Source: a virus
Lineage: Duplodnaviria; Heunggongvirae; Uroviricota; Caudoviricetes
Direction: 5' to 3' (one strand)
Length of the DNA stretch: 16,314 nt
IMG/VR virus record: IMGVR_UViG_2695420398_000002
Location: 1-16,314 of that record
Below the pieces are notes generated by a model, which was not told the origin of the DNA, did not search any database, and saw only the letters and a program-made list of their open reading frames with translations. Each line of letters begins with the position of its first letter. Within the stretch, counting starts at the first letter, position 1. Below, piece by piece: positions 12,049 through 15,354 of this stretch. The translations under genes and the position numbers were made by a program.

Positions 12049-12264
12049 TTAAGCGGCTTTGTGCTCCGGCGGGAACACGTCATCAAGACTTACTTTTGCG
12101 CCTAACTTGTTTAGACACGCAACAAGAGCACGGCATGTTTTAAGGTCTGGGAAGCGACGACCAGATTCCCAATGTCCGATAGCTCCCTGTGTGCATCCAA
12201 CTGCCTTAGCAAGTGTTGTTTGAGAGATATTCAGTGACTCTCGATATTTTCGTAGGTTGCTCAT
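12049..12264 (-). CDS. cro: Cro-like repressor (XRE-family HTH)
   Basis: 71 aa from the ATG at 12264 with GGAGGG Shine-Dalgarno; [23 protein letters not shown] resembles the cI HTH; divergent from cI. Confidence 0.8.
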
Positions 12265-12375
12265 ATGCCCTCCATAGTAACCATGAAGAAAAAAATACAA
12301 TATGTACTTTTTGAATGCAAGCAAAAATACACATTGTGCATGGATGGTTGCAATACAGAGCGTAATAATAAGGAC
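12265..12375. promoter_or_regulatory. Right operator/promoter region (OR; pR towards cro, pRM towards cI)
   Basis: Operator-like dyads TAC-N5-GTA at 12295-12307 (aTACaatatGTAC) and 12327-12339 (aTACacattGTGC); candidate pR on the minus strand with -35 TTGCTT (12319-12324) and -10 TATTGT (12297-12302). Confidence 0.65.
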
Positions 12376-13035
12376 ATGAAAATGAAATGGTATGAACTGG
12401 CTAGATCCAGAATGAAAGAGCTCGGCATAACTCAAGAGAAGTTAGCCGAAGAGCTAGGTATGACGCAGGGTGGGATTGGACACTGGTTGCGCGGATCTCG
12501 TCATCCATCTCTTAGTGATATTGGTGTGGTGTTTAAATACCTTGGTATTGATAACATATCATTCAACCACGACGGGACATTTTCACCTGTTGGCGAATAC
12601 TCATCGGCCCCAGTTAAAAAACAATATGAGTACCCTGTTTTTTCTCATGTTCAGGCTGGGATGTTCTCTCCAGAACTCAGAACCTTTACCAAAGGCGATG
12701 CGGAGAGATTGGTAAGCACAACCAAAAAAGCCAGTGACTCTGCATTCTGGCTTGAGGTTGAAGGTAACTCAATGACCGCCCCAACAGGTTCCAAACCTAG
12801 TTTTCCTGACGGGATGTTAATTCTGGTTGACCCAGAGCAAGCTGTTGAGCTCGGCGATTTCTGCATAGCCAGACTTGGTGGTGATGAATTTACCTTCAAG
12901 AAACTGATCAGGGATAGCGGTCAGGTGTTTCTACAGCCACTAAATCCACAATACCCAATGATCCCATGCAATGAGAGTTGTTCCGTTGTGGGGAAAGTTA
13001 TCGCTAGTCAGTGGCCTGAAGAGACGTTTGGGTGA
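12376..13035 (+). CDS. cI: CI prophage repressor (N-terminal HTH plus C-terminal LexA-like S24 autopeptidase domain)
   Basis: Start chosen at the ATG at 12376 with AAGGA Shine-Dalgarno; [23 protein letters not shown]; C-terminal domain has the GNSM serine motif and a downstream Lys (FTFKKL). Not lambda cI, so a different immunity type. Confidence 0.85.
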
Positions 13036-13115
13036 TGGATGGCAAACCTCATAATGAATAACTTTAGCGAGTTGGCGACAAACTATCCACATTATATTAA
13101 TATAAGGGAAAATCG

Positions 13116-13958
13116 ATGAGTAAGTTCGGGTGTGATATGAGTAGGCAAATTACTGTTTTCGATGACACATCACAGTTAACATTTGATGATTTCGCTAGAG
13201 AAAACGGTGTTACCTATTGGTTTGCATCTGATTTAGCGATGATGCTTGGATATAATGGCATGGATCAGATATTGAAAGCCATTAACAAAGCTACATCTGT
13301 ATGTGTGAGCCTCGATATCCCTGTATACGATAACTTCATCCAGATGCCTTCAGAAAATGCGAAAAATGACTTTAAATTAACTCGTTTCGCTTGTTATCTG
13401 ATTGTAATGAATGGTGACATCAGCAATCAAAAAGTTGCAAATGCACAAGCTTATTTTGCTGGGCTCGCAGCAGAAATACACACTACATATCATAACCATG
13501 ACGCAGTTAATCGAGTTTATTTGCGTGGCGAGATTACATCTAGAGAGAAAACTCTCAGTCATGTAGCCCATAAACACGGAGTAGTCGACTATGGTCTATT
13601 TCAAAATGCGGGCTACCGTGGGATGTACAATATGAATCTCTCACAGTTGAAAGCTCGAAAAGGCCTAACTAAAAAAGATGGAACGATGCTTGACTTCATG
13701 GGAAGCGAAGAGCTCGCGGCCAATATATTCAGAATTACACAGACAGAAGCAAGAATCAGAAACCAGAACCTGAAGGGACAGTCTCAACTAGAGAATGCTG
13801 CTGAGACCGTAGGGAGATCTGTTCGCAATGTAATGATTTCTAACACTGGAACAGCCCCTGAAAACATAAAACTTTCCCAAGAAAAAATTCAGAAAGTTAG
13901 AAGCAGCATTAAGAAAACTCATAAAGCCCTAGCAAAGCACGACCAAAAAAAACCATAA
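13116..13958 (+). CDS. DinD-like protein (DNA-damage-inducible protein D family) at the rexAB position
   Basis: 280 aa with AAGGGAAAA Shine-Dalgarno; motifs FACYLIVMNGD and KGLTKKDGTMLDFMGSEELAANIFRITQTE resemble E. coli DinD as recalled from memory (unverified). Confidence 0.6.
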   Translation: MSKFGCDMSRQITVFDDTSQLTFDDFARENGVTYWFASDLAMMLGYNGMDQILKAINKATSVCVSLDIPVYDNFIQMPSENAKNDFKLTRFACYLIVMNGDISNQKVANAQAYFAGLAAEIHTTYHNHDAVNRVYLRGEITSREKTLSHVAHKHGVVDYGLFQNAGYRGMYNMNLSQLKARKGLTKKDGTMLDFMGSEELAANIFRITQTEARIRNQNLKGQSQLENAAETVGRSVRNVMISNTGTAPENIKLSQEKIQKVRSSIKKTHKALAKHDQKKP

Positions 13959-13966
13959 ATGCATAC

Positions 13967-13992
13967 CCCGGCCTCAGCGCCGGGTTTTCTTT
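13967..13992 (+). terminator. Rho-independent terminator after the DinD-like gene
   Basis: CCCGGC-CTCAGC-GCCGGG (6-bp GC stem) followed by TTTTCTTT, 9 nt after the stop codon. Confidence 0.65.
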
Positions 13993-14132
13993 GCCTCACG
14001 CCCCCACCTAAAGACACATAACCAAATGTATTTATTGAAAAATAAATAGATACAACTCACTAAACCACGCAATTCTGATCTCTCCTTACATCGCCGAGGC
14101 GATACACCCACGCTAAAAAACAACACTATTAA

Positions 14133-14206
14133 ATACAAAGTGTTATAAAAAATCACCCTATTTTAGAACAAATCGTATTGACCCAATAAAGTACATATCG
14201 TACTAT
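14133..14206 (+). promoter_or_regulatory. pL promoter with left operators (OL)
   Basis: -35 TTGACC (14178-14183), 17-nt spacer, -10 TACTAT (14201-14206); operator dyads GTACatatcGTAC (14191-14203, overlapping the promoter) and aTACaaagtGTTA (14133-14145) match the OR motif. Confidence 0.65.
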
Positions 14207-14298: not shown

Positions 14299-14396
14299 GA
14301 TCACCCAACCACATGAGCTGTGGGATGCAATGCCGAAGCAACCGTCTCAGGAGGAGCTTCGAGATTGCATCACCAAAGTTTATTCGGGAGGAATCT

Positions 14397-14669
14397 ATGT
14401 CCAGAAAAACAGAATTTAAAGGCACCTCAGCTTCTCGTCGTAGAGCTCGTCGCGCAAACCTGCAAAGTCAGGAGGCGATTAGCTCCGACAAGCTACACAG
14501 ACCAACCCCCTCTCGAGTGGTCTTGCAATGCAAGCGCAAACCAGCAATGAGAGCAGAAGTAATAACACTGACAACGTTGACCAGAAAATATGAAGGCTCA
14601 ACTTGTCTTCCGAACGTAGCTCTTTACGCGGCAGGCTACCGGAAATCCAAACAACTGACAGCAAAATGA
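14397..14669 (+). CDS. N: Antitermination protein N (arginine-rich motif); reading frame ends prematurely relative to the conserved C-terminus, which is encoded in another frame at 14666-14719
   Basis: ATG at 14397 with GGGAGG Shine-Dalgarno; ARM SASRRRARRA near the N-terminus; RKPAMRAE parallels lambda RKPKSRVE. The 17 codons MTCVGRQKMKLGSKPLI matching the lambda N C-terminus (ITCSGRQKIKGKSIPLI as recalled) lie in a different frame. Confidence 0.7.
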   Translation: MSRKTEFKGTSASRRRARRANLQSQEAISSDKLHRPTPSRVVLQCKRKPAMRAEVITLTTLTRKYEGSTCLPNVALYAAGYRKSKQLTAK

Positions 14670-14730: not shown

Positions 14731-15354
14731 ATGTCATCAATCCGCTTAACAACGAGAATGAAAGAGATAATCGCTCGTAACGCTTTAATTAAGTCTGGGG
14801 TTTTCACTGAACTTAAAGAAGTAACAAAGTTAAATAACCAGCTTGCACTTGACGCCAGAGTTGTTGCGTTTGGCGGTAAAAAGAAAACTGAGGAAGTGGA
14901 TCAGTTATCATCCAAGTTAATGGCTATAAGCGAAGAACTTGAAAAGCTGGGATGTTCATTTTACTCATGCGATGCCCGTTCAACTTCAATTTATCTGACT
15001 GTATCTGGCAGAAGGGTTGGCTGGTATTCATATGGGAAAGACGGCAACGGCGAAGATATATTGCTCCCTACTCCGACCAAAGATAAATGCATGTTTAGCG
15101 CAGAACACGAAATAACAAAAAGGTTTGATGAAATCTGCGCATTGCAACAAAAACTTGAAGCCAAGAAAAAGGATATCGAATCAAATGTATGGGCTGCTTT
15201 GAACTCAGTCACAACAGTTAAGCGACTTATTGAAGTTTGGCCTGAAAGCAAAGAGTTGCTACCAAAAGAAGCAGATAAAGCAAGTACAGCACTTCCTGCT
15301 TTACGGGTAGAAGATTTGAATAAGATGATTGGACTTCCTTCCGAGGTCGCATAA
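14731..15354 (+). CDS. Hypothetical protein (207 aa), soluble, between N and ea10 at the ral/sieB position
   Basis: ATG-initiated ORF; no hydrophobic segments; charged, coiled-coil-like stretches; AT-rich; no family recognised. Confidence 0.65.
   Translation: MSSIRLTTRMKEIIARNALIKSGVFTELKEVTKLNNQLALDARVVAFGGKKKTEEVDQLSSKLMAISEELEKLGCSFYSCDARSTSIYLTVSGRRVGWYSYGKDGNGEDILLPTPTKDKCMFSAEHEITKRFDEICALQQKLEAKKKDIESNVWAALNSVTTVKRLIEVWPESKELLPKEADKASTALPALRVEDLNKMIGLPSEVA

What the first reader, a model, noticed from the sequence alone, without database searches (positions are those of the whole stretch)
13116..13992. DinD-like gene with its own terminator occupies the rexAB slot next to cI
Downstream of cI on the same strand, where lambda has rexA/rexB (a lysogen-expressed exclusion system), this prophage has a 280-aa ORF with a strong Shine-Dalgarno and a clean terminator. 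Its motifs (FACYLIVMNGD; KGL.KK...LDFMGSEELAANIFRITQTE) look to me like the DinD family, whose E. coli member is SOS-induced and reported to inhibit RecA strand exchange. In this position it would be co-transcribed with the repressor in the lysogen, the usual signature of a prophage-encoded host-protection or phage-exclusion gene. The DinD assignment is from memory and needs checking.
Basis: partly seen in the sequence, partly recalled or inferred. Interest (0 to 1): 0.6.

Follow-up and report, generated by a model that had tools for sequence, protein, structure and literature searches.

The report
DinD-like gene behind prophage repressor
A lambda-like prophage carries, in the swappable slot right after its repressor gene where lambda keeps its rexAB exclusion genes, a strongly conserved relative of the E. 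coli DNA-damage protein DinD that probably binds DNA and is a plausible but untested anti-phage gene.

Summary
A 280-aa ORF (13116-13958, +) lies 80 nt after a cI-type repressor and ends just before a hairpin terminator, ahead of a pL-like promoter and N.

The DinD recall is right at family level. The NCBIfam DinD model matches end to end (E 1.4e-58) but below its equivalog cut-off. Identity to K-12 DinD is 33% (E 9e-44), and both have a Bro-N N-domain. It is not an ortholog and has no LexA box, which K-12 dinD does.

The terminator is not the gene's own. It is lambda's t_imm, shared by phages carrying other cargo. The replaceable cassette is 13037 to about 13945-13966.

Relatives of 64-95% identity sit behind very diverse repressors in Yersinia, Providencia, Pasteurellaceae and many viral contigs. 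dN/dS is about 0.015.

Best reading: a lysogen-expressed DNA-binding protein that excludes other phages. That function is inferred, not shown. It is a new member of a known kind, of moderate interest.

The parts
12220..12248 (+). pRM-like promoter (TTGAGA-17-GATATT) just upstream of the repressor gene. It is the presumed source of the lysogenic transcript that would run through the cassette.
   Evidence: Consensus scan. Position relative to cI and the divergent cro-like gene. Function is inferred.
12340..13035 (+). cI-type repressor (HTH_3 + Peptidase_S24). The longest ORF starts at 12265; RefSeq annotates the equivalent of 12340.
   Evidence: Pfam Peptidase_S24 E 6.7e-28 and HTH_3 E 2.3e-10. 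RefSeq 'LexA family protein' in the identical region of E2348/69.
13037..13115 (+). Leader, forming the 5' part of the replaceable cassette. It contains a degenerate -10-like hexamer TAATAT (13098-13103) abutting the Shine-Dalgarno AAGGGA (13104-13109).
   Evidence: Homology with phages that share this cI stops at 13033/13036. In relatives the same register holds TGnTAnAAT. No full sigma-70 site in the scan.
13116..13958 (+). DinD-family gene of 280 aa. Unstructured N-terminal peptide (aa 1-22), Bro-N domain (about aa 23-120), linker, and an all-helical C-domain (aa 129-277).
   Evidence: GC is 39.7% against 45.5% for cI; dN/dS 0.014-0.019.
13967..13994 (+). Rho-independent terminator, homologous to lambda t_imm. 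It belongs to the conserved flank shared by phages with other cargo.
   Evidence: Hairpin plus T-run. Conserved in more than 800 E. coli genomes and about 100 phage records. In a lambda lysogen the match begins at the last 4 nt of rexB. Homology with phages 2B8 and Stx2a_WGPS8 resumes at 13946/13967.
14178..14206 (+). pL-like promoter (TTGACC-17-TACTAT). It marks the start of the next, lytic operon.
   Evidence: position upstream of N.
14313..14669 (+). N antitermination protein gene, the downstream boundary of the immunity-region slot.
   Evidence: Pfam PF25694 N_peptide E 1.1e-31.

Best explanation
The gene encodes a DinD-family protein with a Bro-N DNA-binding N-domain and a conserved helical C-domain. 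Its predicted fold is that of the Deinococcus DNA-break sensor DdrC. It is carried as an exchangeable single-gene cassette in the cI-t_imm slot of a lambdoid prophage.

The proposed mechanism has four steps, marked by how well each is supported.
1. Shown: the gene lies on the cI strand with no intervening terminator and ends at t_imm.
2. Inferred: in the lysogen it is transcribed with cI from pRM, possibly helped by a weak promoter of its own. It is therefore made constitutively and not under LexA control.
3. Inferred from the fold and from published biochemistry of K-12 DinD and DdrC: the protein binds DNA structures such as ends, nicks or multi-stranded recombinase-bound intermediates.
4. 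Inferred from position and from guilt-by-embedding: this activity is directed at superinfecting phage DNA, or at its replication and recombination intermediates. It gives the lysogen exclusion of, or abortive infection by, other phages, in the way RexAB and BstA do from the same slot.
For: **Identity**
- NCBIfam DinD model E 1.4e-58, full length.
- 33% identity to K-12 DinD, E 9e-44.
- Bro-N domain in both proteins.

**Position**
- The order is cI - gene - t_imm - pL - N.
- The cassette boundaries fall exactly at the cI stop codon and at the terminator.
- Phages with the same cI carry other cargo there: a NYN-domain protein, or a 173-aa hypothetical protein.

**Recurrent synteny**
- Homologs of 52-81% identity in Yersinia (three different repressors), Providencia, Pasteurella and Microbulbifer all follow the repressor gene.
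- Of 73 distinct upstream same-strand ORFs, mostly from IMG/VR viral contigs, 44 have Peptidase_S24 and 48 have HTH_3. These repressors average only 11% column identity.

**Defence association**
- PADLOC PDC-S13 matches at E 2.1e-86, and a type I specificity-subunit profile carries this module at its N-terminus.
- PDC systems were defined by being embedded in BREX, DISARM or type I R-M loci.
- A dinD+RhuM CDS has been reported inside a type I R-M operon.
- BstA, a validated abortive-infection protein with a KilA-N-like N-domain, sits in the same slot.

**Selection**
- dN/dS is about 0.015.
- Identity stays at 45-58% across many phyla.

**Fold**
- DdrC binds pairs of nicks or breaks.
- K-12 DinD is cited as a regulator that acts on RecA filaments.
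Against: - No experiment shows anti-phage activity for any DinD-family protein. PDC-S13 is explicitly untested and no paper mentions it.
- Lysogenic transcription was not measured.
- The DdrC link rests on an AlphaFold model (pLDDT 79, pTM 0.61). No sequence-level signal supports it.
- Outside the proteobacterial prophage clade the gene is mostly solitary among ordinary genes. Only 8 of 70 upstream neighbours are repressors and only a few are R-M genes. A defence context is therefore not universal.
- The allele is rare in E. coli, in 10 of 5426 complete genomes.
- Deleting a dinD-like gene from a pneumococcal island gave no marked transformation phenotype.
Confidence: 0.45

Rival explanations
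1. The protein modulates recombination or the SOS response for the prophage's own benefit. Like K-12 DinD, it would dismantle RecA bound to duplex or three-stranded DNA. In the lysogen this would limit RecA-driven recombination between the prophage and related resident or incoming prophages, or it would tune the induction threshold of the S24-type repressor.
For: - Family membership with K-12 DinD, the only characterised member, cited as inhibiting RecA strand exchange.
- It sits next to a RecA-cleavable repressor.
- The C-domain motifs are conserved with K-12 DinD.
- The window's prophage carries its own recombination genes in the related E2348/69 element.
Against: - The gene also follows repressors that lack an S24 domain: L005 (137 aa) and L012 (HTH only).
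- From memory of Uranga et al. 2011, which could not be read here, DinD does not affect the RecA-ssDNA filaments that drive repressor cleavage.
- This reading does not explain the embedding in R-M systems or the fusion to HsdS.
- Identity to K-12 DinD is only 33%.
Confidence: 0.2
2. The protein is a Bro-N-type regulator or antirepressor. It would bind another element's repressor or DNA sites to control transcription, for example to induce or silence competing prophages or satellites.
For: - The Bro-N domain.
- Matches confined to the N-domain are actinophage proteins annotated as antirepressors.
- BFVD fold matches are KilA-N, Bro-N, 'repressor domain' and antirepressor proteins.
Against: - There is no ANT, KilA-C or other antirepressor C-domain. 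Pfam finds only Bro-N.
- The conserved C-domain is the DinD/DdrC-like one.
- Known SOS-controlled antirepressors have LexA boxes; this gene has none.
- The family is conserved at 45-58% identity across phyla, often with no prophage nearby. That argues for a universal target rather than a specific repressor.
Confidence: 0.1
3. The gene serves the establishment or lytic phase and has no role in the lysogen. It would be expressed from pRE or from its own promoter early after infection and would act on the phage's own DNA, for example by protecting ends or helping circularisation as DdrC circularises linear DNA.
For: - DdrC-like fold, and DdrC's published ability to circularise linear DNA.
- A conserved -10-like element in the leader of relatives suggests transcription independent of pRM.
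- Full-length homologs occur in some isolated phages, including a 174-kb Campylobacter phage.
Against: - Orientation and placement inside the cI-t_imm unit match the lysogenic operon.
- The gene is dispensable. Phages with the same cI and N lack it.
- Many copies are chromosomal, with no phage genes nearby.
Confidence: 0.1

Closest known systems
E. coli K-12 DinD (PcsA; NCBIfam NF008573 / PRK11525)
   Same: Same length class (280 vs 274 aa) and the same architecture: Bro-N plus a conserved helical C-domain. Shared motifs FQN.GY.G.Y and LD.MGS.ELAAN.FR.TQTE. 33% identity over 258 aa, E 9e-44.
   Different: Scores below the equivalog cut-off (198.6 vs 242). It has an extra conserved N-terminal peptide, MSKFGCDMS. 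It has no LexA box, whereas K-12 has CTGTATATAAATACAG. It is prophage cargo behind cI rather than a chromosomal SOS gene. It belongs to a separate clade that is far closer to Yersinia, Pasteurellaceae and Neisseria prophage genes (64-81% identity) than to K-12 DinD.
PADLOC phage defence candidate PDC-S13
   Same: Full-length match to profile PDLC04919, E 2.1e-86. By sequence the gene is a member of this candidate single-gene system.
   Different: PDC systems were nominated because they are embedded in BREX, DISARM or type I R-M loci, and they are untested. Here the context is a prophage immunity region, which is an independent kind of association.
Lambda RexA/RexB
   Same: Same slot: after cI, before t_imm, upstream of pL and N. 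The terminator is homologous (97% over 38 nt, beginning at the end of rexB). RexAB is the classic lysogen-expressed exclusion system of this slot.
   Different: No sequence or domain similarity. This is one soluble DNA-binding-type protein, not a sensor plus a membrane protein.
BstA (Salmonella prophage BTP1; Owen et al. 2021, PMC8585504)
   Same: A single gene of about 300 aa directly downstream of the prophage repressor. [quoted passage not shown] Its homologs are found behind diverse repressors and sometimes outside prophages.
   Different: No significant sequence relationship. hhalign gives E 0.092 and 0.6% probability, confined to the N-domains, and there is no BstA hit in PADLOC. No aba-like self-immunity element was identified.
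Deinococcus radiodurans DdrC (PDB 7qvb, 7udi, 8u0g)
   Different: No sequence-level match. The DdrC paper states it has no identifiable sequence homologs outside Deinococcus. Dimerisation and binding to nicks or breaks are untested for this protein. The comparison uses a predicted model.
Bro-N / ANT phage antirepressors
   Same: The N-terminal Bro-N domain (Pfam 33.6 bits). Matches confined to the N-domain are annotated antirepressors.
   Different: It lacks the ANT or KilA-C C-terminal domains. Its C-domain is specific to the DinD family.

Membership tests
DinD family (NF008573 / PRK11525) | Full-length match to the family profile | tested here: met
   E 1.4e-58, 198.6 bits, protein residues 22-278 against profile positions 12-286 of 288. 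BLASTP to K-12 DinD: 33% identity, E 9e-44.
DinD family (NF008573 / PRK11525) | Score at or above NCBI's equivalog cut-off, meaning the same function as K-12 DinD can be assumed | tested here: not met
   198.6 bits against a cut-off of 242. The protein is a family member or paralog, not an equivalog.
DinD family (NF008573 / PRK11525) | N-terminal Bro-N domain plus the conserved C-domain motifs | tested here: met
   Bro-N scores 33.6 bits here and 32.4 bits in K-12 DinD. The motifs are invariant across 36 homologs and are present in K-12 DinD.
DinD family (NF008573 / PRK11525) | LexA box and SOS-inducible expression | tested here: not met
   No CTG-N10-CAG between 11603 and 16261, and no match to the 20-mer consensus with up to 3 mismatches. 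Positive control: K-12 dinD has CTGTATATAAATACAG at L002 2700-2715.
DinD family (NF008573 / PRK11525) | Inhibition of postsynaptic RecA filaments | not testable with these tools
   This is biochemistry (Uranga et al. 2011, cited). The paper itself is not held.
PADLOC PDC-S13 | Match to the PDC-S13 profile | tested here: met
   PDLC04919, E 2.1e-86, residues 17-279 against 7-280 of 281.
PADLOC PDC-S13 | Demonstrated anti-phage activity | not testable with these tools
   The 145 PDC systems are described as untested. No paper mentions PDC-S13.
cI-operon cargo of lambdoid phages (RexAB / BstA slot) | Located between the repressor gene and t_imm, on the same strand, upstream of pL and N | tested here: met
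cI-operon cargo of lambdoid phages (RexAB / BstA slot) | Transcribed in the lysogen | not testable with these tools
   No terminator and no full sigma-70 site lie between cI and the ORF. No expression data are available.
BstA | Sequence homology to BstA | tested here: not met
   hhalign E 0.092, probability 0.6%. No BstA model among the PADLOC hits.
BstA | Cognate aba self-immunity DNA element spanning the start of the gene | tested here: inconclusive
   No notable repeats in 13000-14050. Relatives do conserve a leader motif and the first 9 codons, but the codons are conserved at peptide level, not DNA level.
DdrC | Two-domain fold: a winged-helix-like N-domain followed by a helical C-domain | tested here: met
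   [not shown]
DdrC | Detectable sequence homology | tested here: not met
   A profile search of all PDB sequences found no DdrC match, even at E <= 10.
DdrC | Asymmetric homodimer that binds pairs of nicks or breaks | not testable with these tools
   Needs SEC-MALS and EMSA, as in PMC11347143.
Bro-N/ANT antirepressors | Antirepressor C-terminal domain (ANT or KilA-C) | tested here: not met
   Pfam reports only Bro-N at E <= 0.1.

The most novel reading that the evidence does not exclude
The DinD family is the widespread counterpart of Deinococcus DdrC, which has been described as genus-specific. Under this reading it is a single-protein sensor of DNA ends, nicks or recombinase-bound joints. 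In mobile elements (prophage cI operons, R-M and BREX loci, satellites) it would act as a stand-alone anti-phage immunity protein by seizing phage DNA or recombination intermediates. K-12 dinD would be a domesticated copy placed under SOS control. This would give dinD a physiological role after decades of use only as an SOS reporter.
Probability: 0.2. Interest if true: 0.75.

Novelty: new member of a known kind. Interest (0 to 1): 0.45.

Why it matters
**The open question.** DinD has been known since the first SOS gene screens and is widely used as a reporter. Its cellular role is still unclear.

**What this gene adds.** It belongs to a tightly conserved DinD clade that repeatedly occupies the most highly expressed lysogenic slot of lambdoid prophages. 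That is the same slot as the abortive-infection systems RexAB and BstA. The family was independently flagged because it is embedded in restriction and BREX loci.

**Why it is testable.** Together these observations make a concrete hypothesis: single-gene phage exclusion by a DNA-structure-binding protein. A small construct (13037-14000) would be enough to test it.

**The structural lead.** The predicted similarity to DdrC, if confirmed, would link two 'orphan' DNA-damage proteins. It would also end DdrC's status as unique to Deinococcus.

**If the gene has no phage phenotype.** The finding is then simply one more accessory gene in a known hotspot.

Tried and rejected
- **LexA control.** No LexA box lies near the gene. 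The control in K-12 was positive. SOS regulation like that of dinD is rejected.
- **Own full sigma-70 promoter in the 80-nt spacer.** The scan found none. Only a degenerate -10-like hexamer is present.
- **'Own terminator'.** Rejected. The hairpin belongs to the shared flank and corresponds to lambda t_imm.
- **aba-like repeats or inverted repeats in or near the ORF.** Nothing beyond chance-level short matches.
- **BstA homology.** Not significant.
- **Solved structure by sequence.** None, even at E <= 10.
- **AlphaFold-database fold library.** Not available. The viral library gave only Bro-N and KilA-N type hits.
- **Literature linking DinD, PDC-S13 or DdrC to phage defence.** None found. Uranga et al. 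2011 is not held.
- **Defence-profile matches for alternative cargo in the same slot.** Only weak ones: the NYN-domain protein of phage 2B8 against HEC-09 and NYN, E 2e-4 to 1e-3.
- **Whole window as a known prophage.** No complete E. coli genome holds it in one piece. The best is 87% coverage at 97.7% identity. Only the immunity region is identical to E2348/69.

Full report
**1. What is in the sequence**

An ATG-initiated ORF of 280 codons runs from 13116 to 13958 on the + strand. TAAGGGA lies 6 nt upstream of the ATG. Nine nucleotides past the stop codon there is a 6-bp all-GC hairpin (13967-13984) followed by TTTTCTTTG. As RNA it folds at -12.7 kcal/mol.

The neighbours fix the context:
- The upstream gene on the same strand (12265/12340-13035) is an HTH_3 + Peptidase_S24 repressor. 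A pRM-like promoter lies just before it.
- Downstream come a pL-like promoter (14178-14206) and an N antiterminator (14313-14669; Pfam N_peptide E 1e-31).

This is the lambda order cI - cargo - t_imm - pL - N, read on lambda's leftward strand.

**2. Is it DinD?**

At family level, yes.
- The NCBIfam model for DNA damage-inducible protein D matches end to end (E 1.4e-58). The score of 198.6 bits is below the 242-bit equivalog cut-off.
- Direct BLASTP against K-12 DinD, taken from NC_000913, gives 33% identity over 258 residues, E 9e-44. The FQN.GY.G.Y and LD.MGS.ELAAN.FR.TQTE motifs are shared.
- Both proteins have a Bro-N N-domain.

It is not the same gene, however.
- K-12 dinD has a canonical LexA box 46 nt upstream. 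This gene has none within several kb.
- Much closer relatives (64-95% identity) exist in other bacteria.
- PHROGs lists the protein in a family of unknown function. RefSeq calls it 'BRO family protein'.

**3. The slot and the cassette**

DNA of cI and of N is 94-99% identical to several Stx phages and to phage 2B8, but the stretch between them is not. Pairwise BLAST places the breakpoints at the cI stop codon (13033/13036) and at 13946/13967, which is at or just before the terminator hairpin.

Phages with the same cI carry other cargo in this position:
- Phage 2B8 has a NYN-domain protein.
- Stx2a_WGPS8 has a 173-aa hypothetical protein.

The terminator segment is conserved in more than 800 E. 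coli genomes and about 100 phage records. In a lambda lysogen the match begins at the last four bases of rexB. The terminator is therefore lambda's t_imm, not this gene's own.

The exchangeable unit is 13037 to about 13945-13966. Its GC content is 39.4%, against 45.5% for cI and 48.7% for N.

The allele is rare. Ten of 5426 complete E. coli genomes carry it, all 100% identical, including EPEC E2348/69. No isolated coliphage carries it. The window as a whole is a mosaic that is not present in any complete genome.

**4. Relatives and their contexts**

*Behind repressors.* Homologs of 52-81% identity always lie directly after the repressor gene, on the same strand and before the early-left operon. 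This holds in Yersinia (three prophages with three different repressors, one without an S24 domain), Providencia, Pasteurella and Microbulbifer.

*Viral contigs.* A scan of IMG/VR found 256 viral contigs with a relative. I took the nearest upstream same-strand ORF from these and the earlier loci. Among the 73 distinct ORFs, 44 carry Peptidase_S24 and 48 carry HTH_3. The repressors themselves are hardly alignable, with a mean column identity of 11%. The association is with the position, not with one immunity type.

*Selection.* Alleles that are 95% identical in protein differ at nearly every synonymous site: dS 1.2-1.9, dN/dS 0.014-0.019.

*Beyond this clade.*
- The family spans nearly all bacterial phyla at 45-58% identity. 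It has 6579 cluster representatives at E <= 1e-3.
- Its contexts there are mixed. Only 8 of 70 upstream neighbours are repressors. A few are restriction enzymes, integrases or IS elements, and many are ordinary genes.
- Full-length copies also occur in Riemerella phages, in Streptococcus satellite elements and elsewhere.

**5. Evidence bearing on function**

*Defence association.*
- PADLOC matches the protein to PDC-S13 (E 2.1e-86). It also matches the N-terminal 276 positions of a 717-position type I specificity-subunit profile.
- PDC systems are 145 untested candidates, chosen because they are embedded in BREX, DISARM or type I R-M loci.
- An independent paper records a dinD+RhuM CDS inside a type I R-M operon.
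- The cI-N interval is a known mosaic hotspot. It holds RexAB in lambda and BstA in BTP1. BstA is a validated abortive-infection protein with a KilA-N-like N-domain that localises to phage replication sites.
- The present protein is not BstA by sequence.

*Structure.*
- An AlphaFold model built from 36 homologs (pLDDT 79, pTM 0.61) shows a Bro-N domain, a flexible linker and a well-predicted helical C-domain.
- No PDB sequence matches.
- DdrC is a homodimer that senses and traps pairs of nicks or breaks. Its authors report no identifiable sequence homologs outside Deinococcus.
- I found no paper connecting DdrC with DinD.

*Biochemistry of the family.* K-12 DinD is cited as acting on RecA filaments after synapsis. 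The primary paper could not be read.

**6. Interpretation**

*Shown:*
- family membership;
- the slot and the cassette boundaries;
- recurrent placement behind repressors;
- strong purifying selection;
- absence of LexA control.

*Inferred:*
- Expression with cI in the lysogen. No terminator or full promoter lies between them. It follows that expression should fall, not rise, on SOS induction, which is the opposite of dinD.
- DNA-structure binding, from the Bro-N domain and the DdrC-like fold.
- Exclusion of other phages.

I put the full chain at about 0.45. The rivals, with their evidence, are listed separately: a RecA or recombination modulator for the prophage's own benefit (0.2), a Bro-type regulator or antirepressor (0.1), and a role in the establishment or lytic phase (0.1).

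**7. Novelty and score**

The family, the slot and the defence-candidate label all exist already. New here are three things:
- a distinct DinD clade that is systematically tied to the repressor-downstream slot;
- the demonstration that this copy has lost, or never had, SOS control;
- the predicted DdrC fold.

That makes it a new member of a known kind, with a useful and cheap experimental handle on DinD function. Interest is 0.45.

Noticed in passing
window 13091-13109; L003-L009, L014-L082 (12-16 nt upstream of each homolog's ATG): Prophage-clade cassettes whose leaders are otherwise unalignable share an extended -10-like motif, TGnTAnAAT (for example TGATAAAAT, TGATAGAAT, TGATATAAT, TGGTATAAT). 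It abuts the Shine-Dalgarno directly. In the window it is degenerate (TAT-TAATAT). A promoter here would give a nearly leaderless mRNA. It could also be a translational or self-immunity element.
   Followed up: partly
window 13116-13142 (aa 1-9); same region in L003-L082: The N-terminal peptide M-[ST]-K-F-[GNQ]-C-D-M-[ST] is conserved in the prophage clade. It is absent from K-12 DinD and unstructured in the model. Conservation is at peptide level, because synonymous changes are seen. A second in-frame Met at codon 8 is also conserved.
   Followed up: partly
[not shown]
   Followed up: partly
window 14731-15354 (+): The gene directly after N in the pL operon encodes an Nmad5 protein ('nucleotide modification associated domain 5', Pfam E 6.5e-70; PHROG 1965, unknown function). 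The otherwise identical immunity region of E2348/69 has a different gene at this position.
   Followed up: no
PADLOC profile PDLC03083 (Specificity_I), positions 14-276 of 717: A type I R-M specificity-subunit profile carries a DinD-like module at its N-terminus and matches this protein at E 8.5e-40. Some HsdS proteins are therefore fused to a full DinD-like domain.
   Followed up: no
L095 1463-2320 (phage 2B8); L096 1838-2359 (Stx2a_WGPS8): With the same cI and the same t_imm, the slot instead holds a 285-aa NYN-domain protein (weak PADLOC HEC-09 and NYN hits) or a 173-aa hypothetical protein. This is direct evidence of cassette exchange at fixed breakpoints.
   Followed up: partly
L009 11646-14925 (Pasteurella prophage): The same prophage that carries a DinD-like gene behind cI also has, in its early-left region, an HTH gene, a reverse-transcriptase gene (RVT_1) and a 341-aa gene in a row, which looks like a retron-type or other RT-type defence. 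A second Bro-N protein and a KilA-N protein follow.
   Followed up: no
NZ_CP028750.1 (E. coli A25): This genome has two places matching the ORF. Every other positive genome has one.
   Followed up: no
L003 7775-7909; L006 7804-7914: In Yersinia and Providencia a small ORF (44 and 36 aa) is called between the repressor gene and the DinD-like gene. The window has no counterpart in its 80-nt spacer.
   Followed up: no
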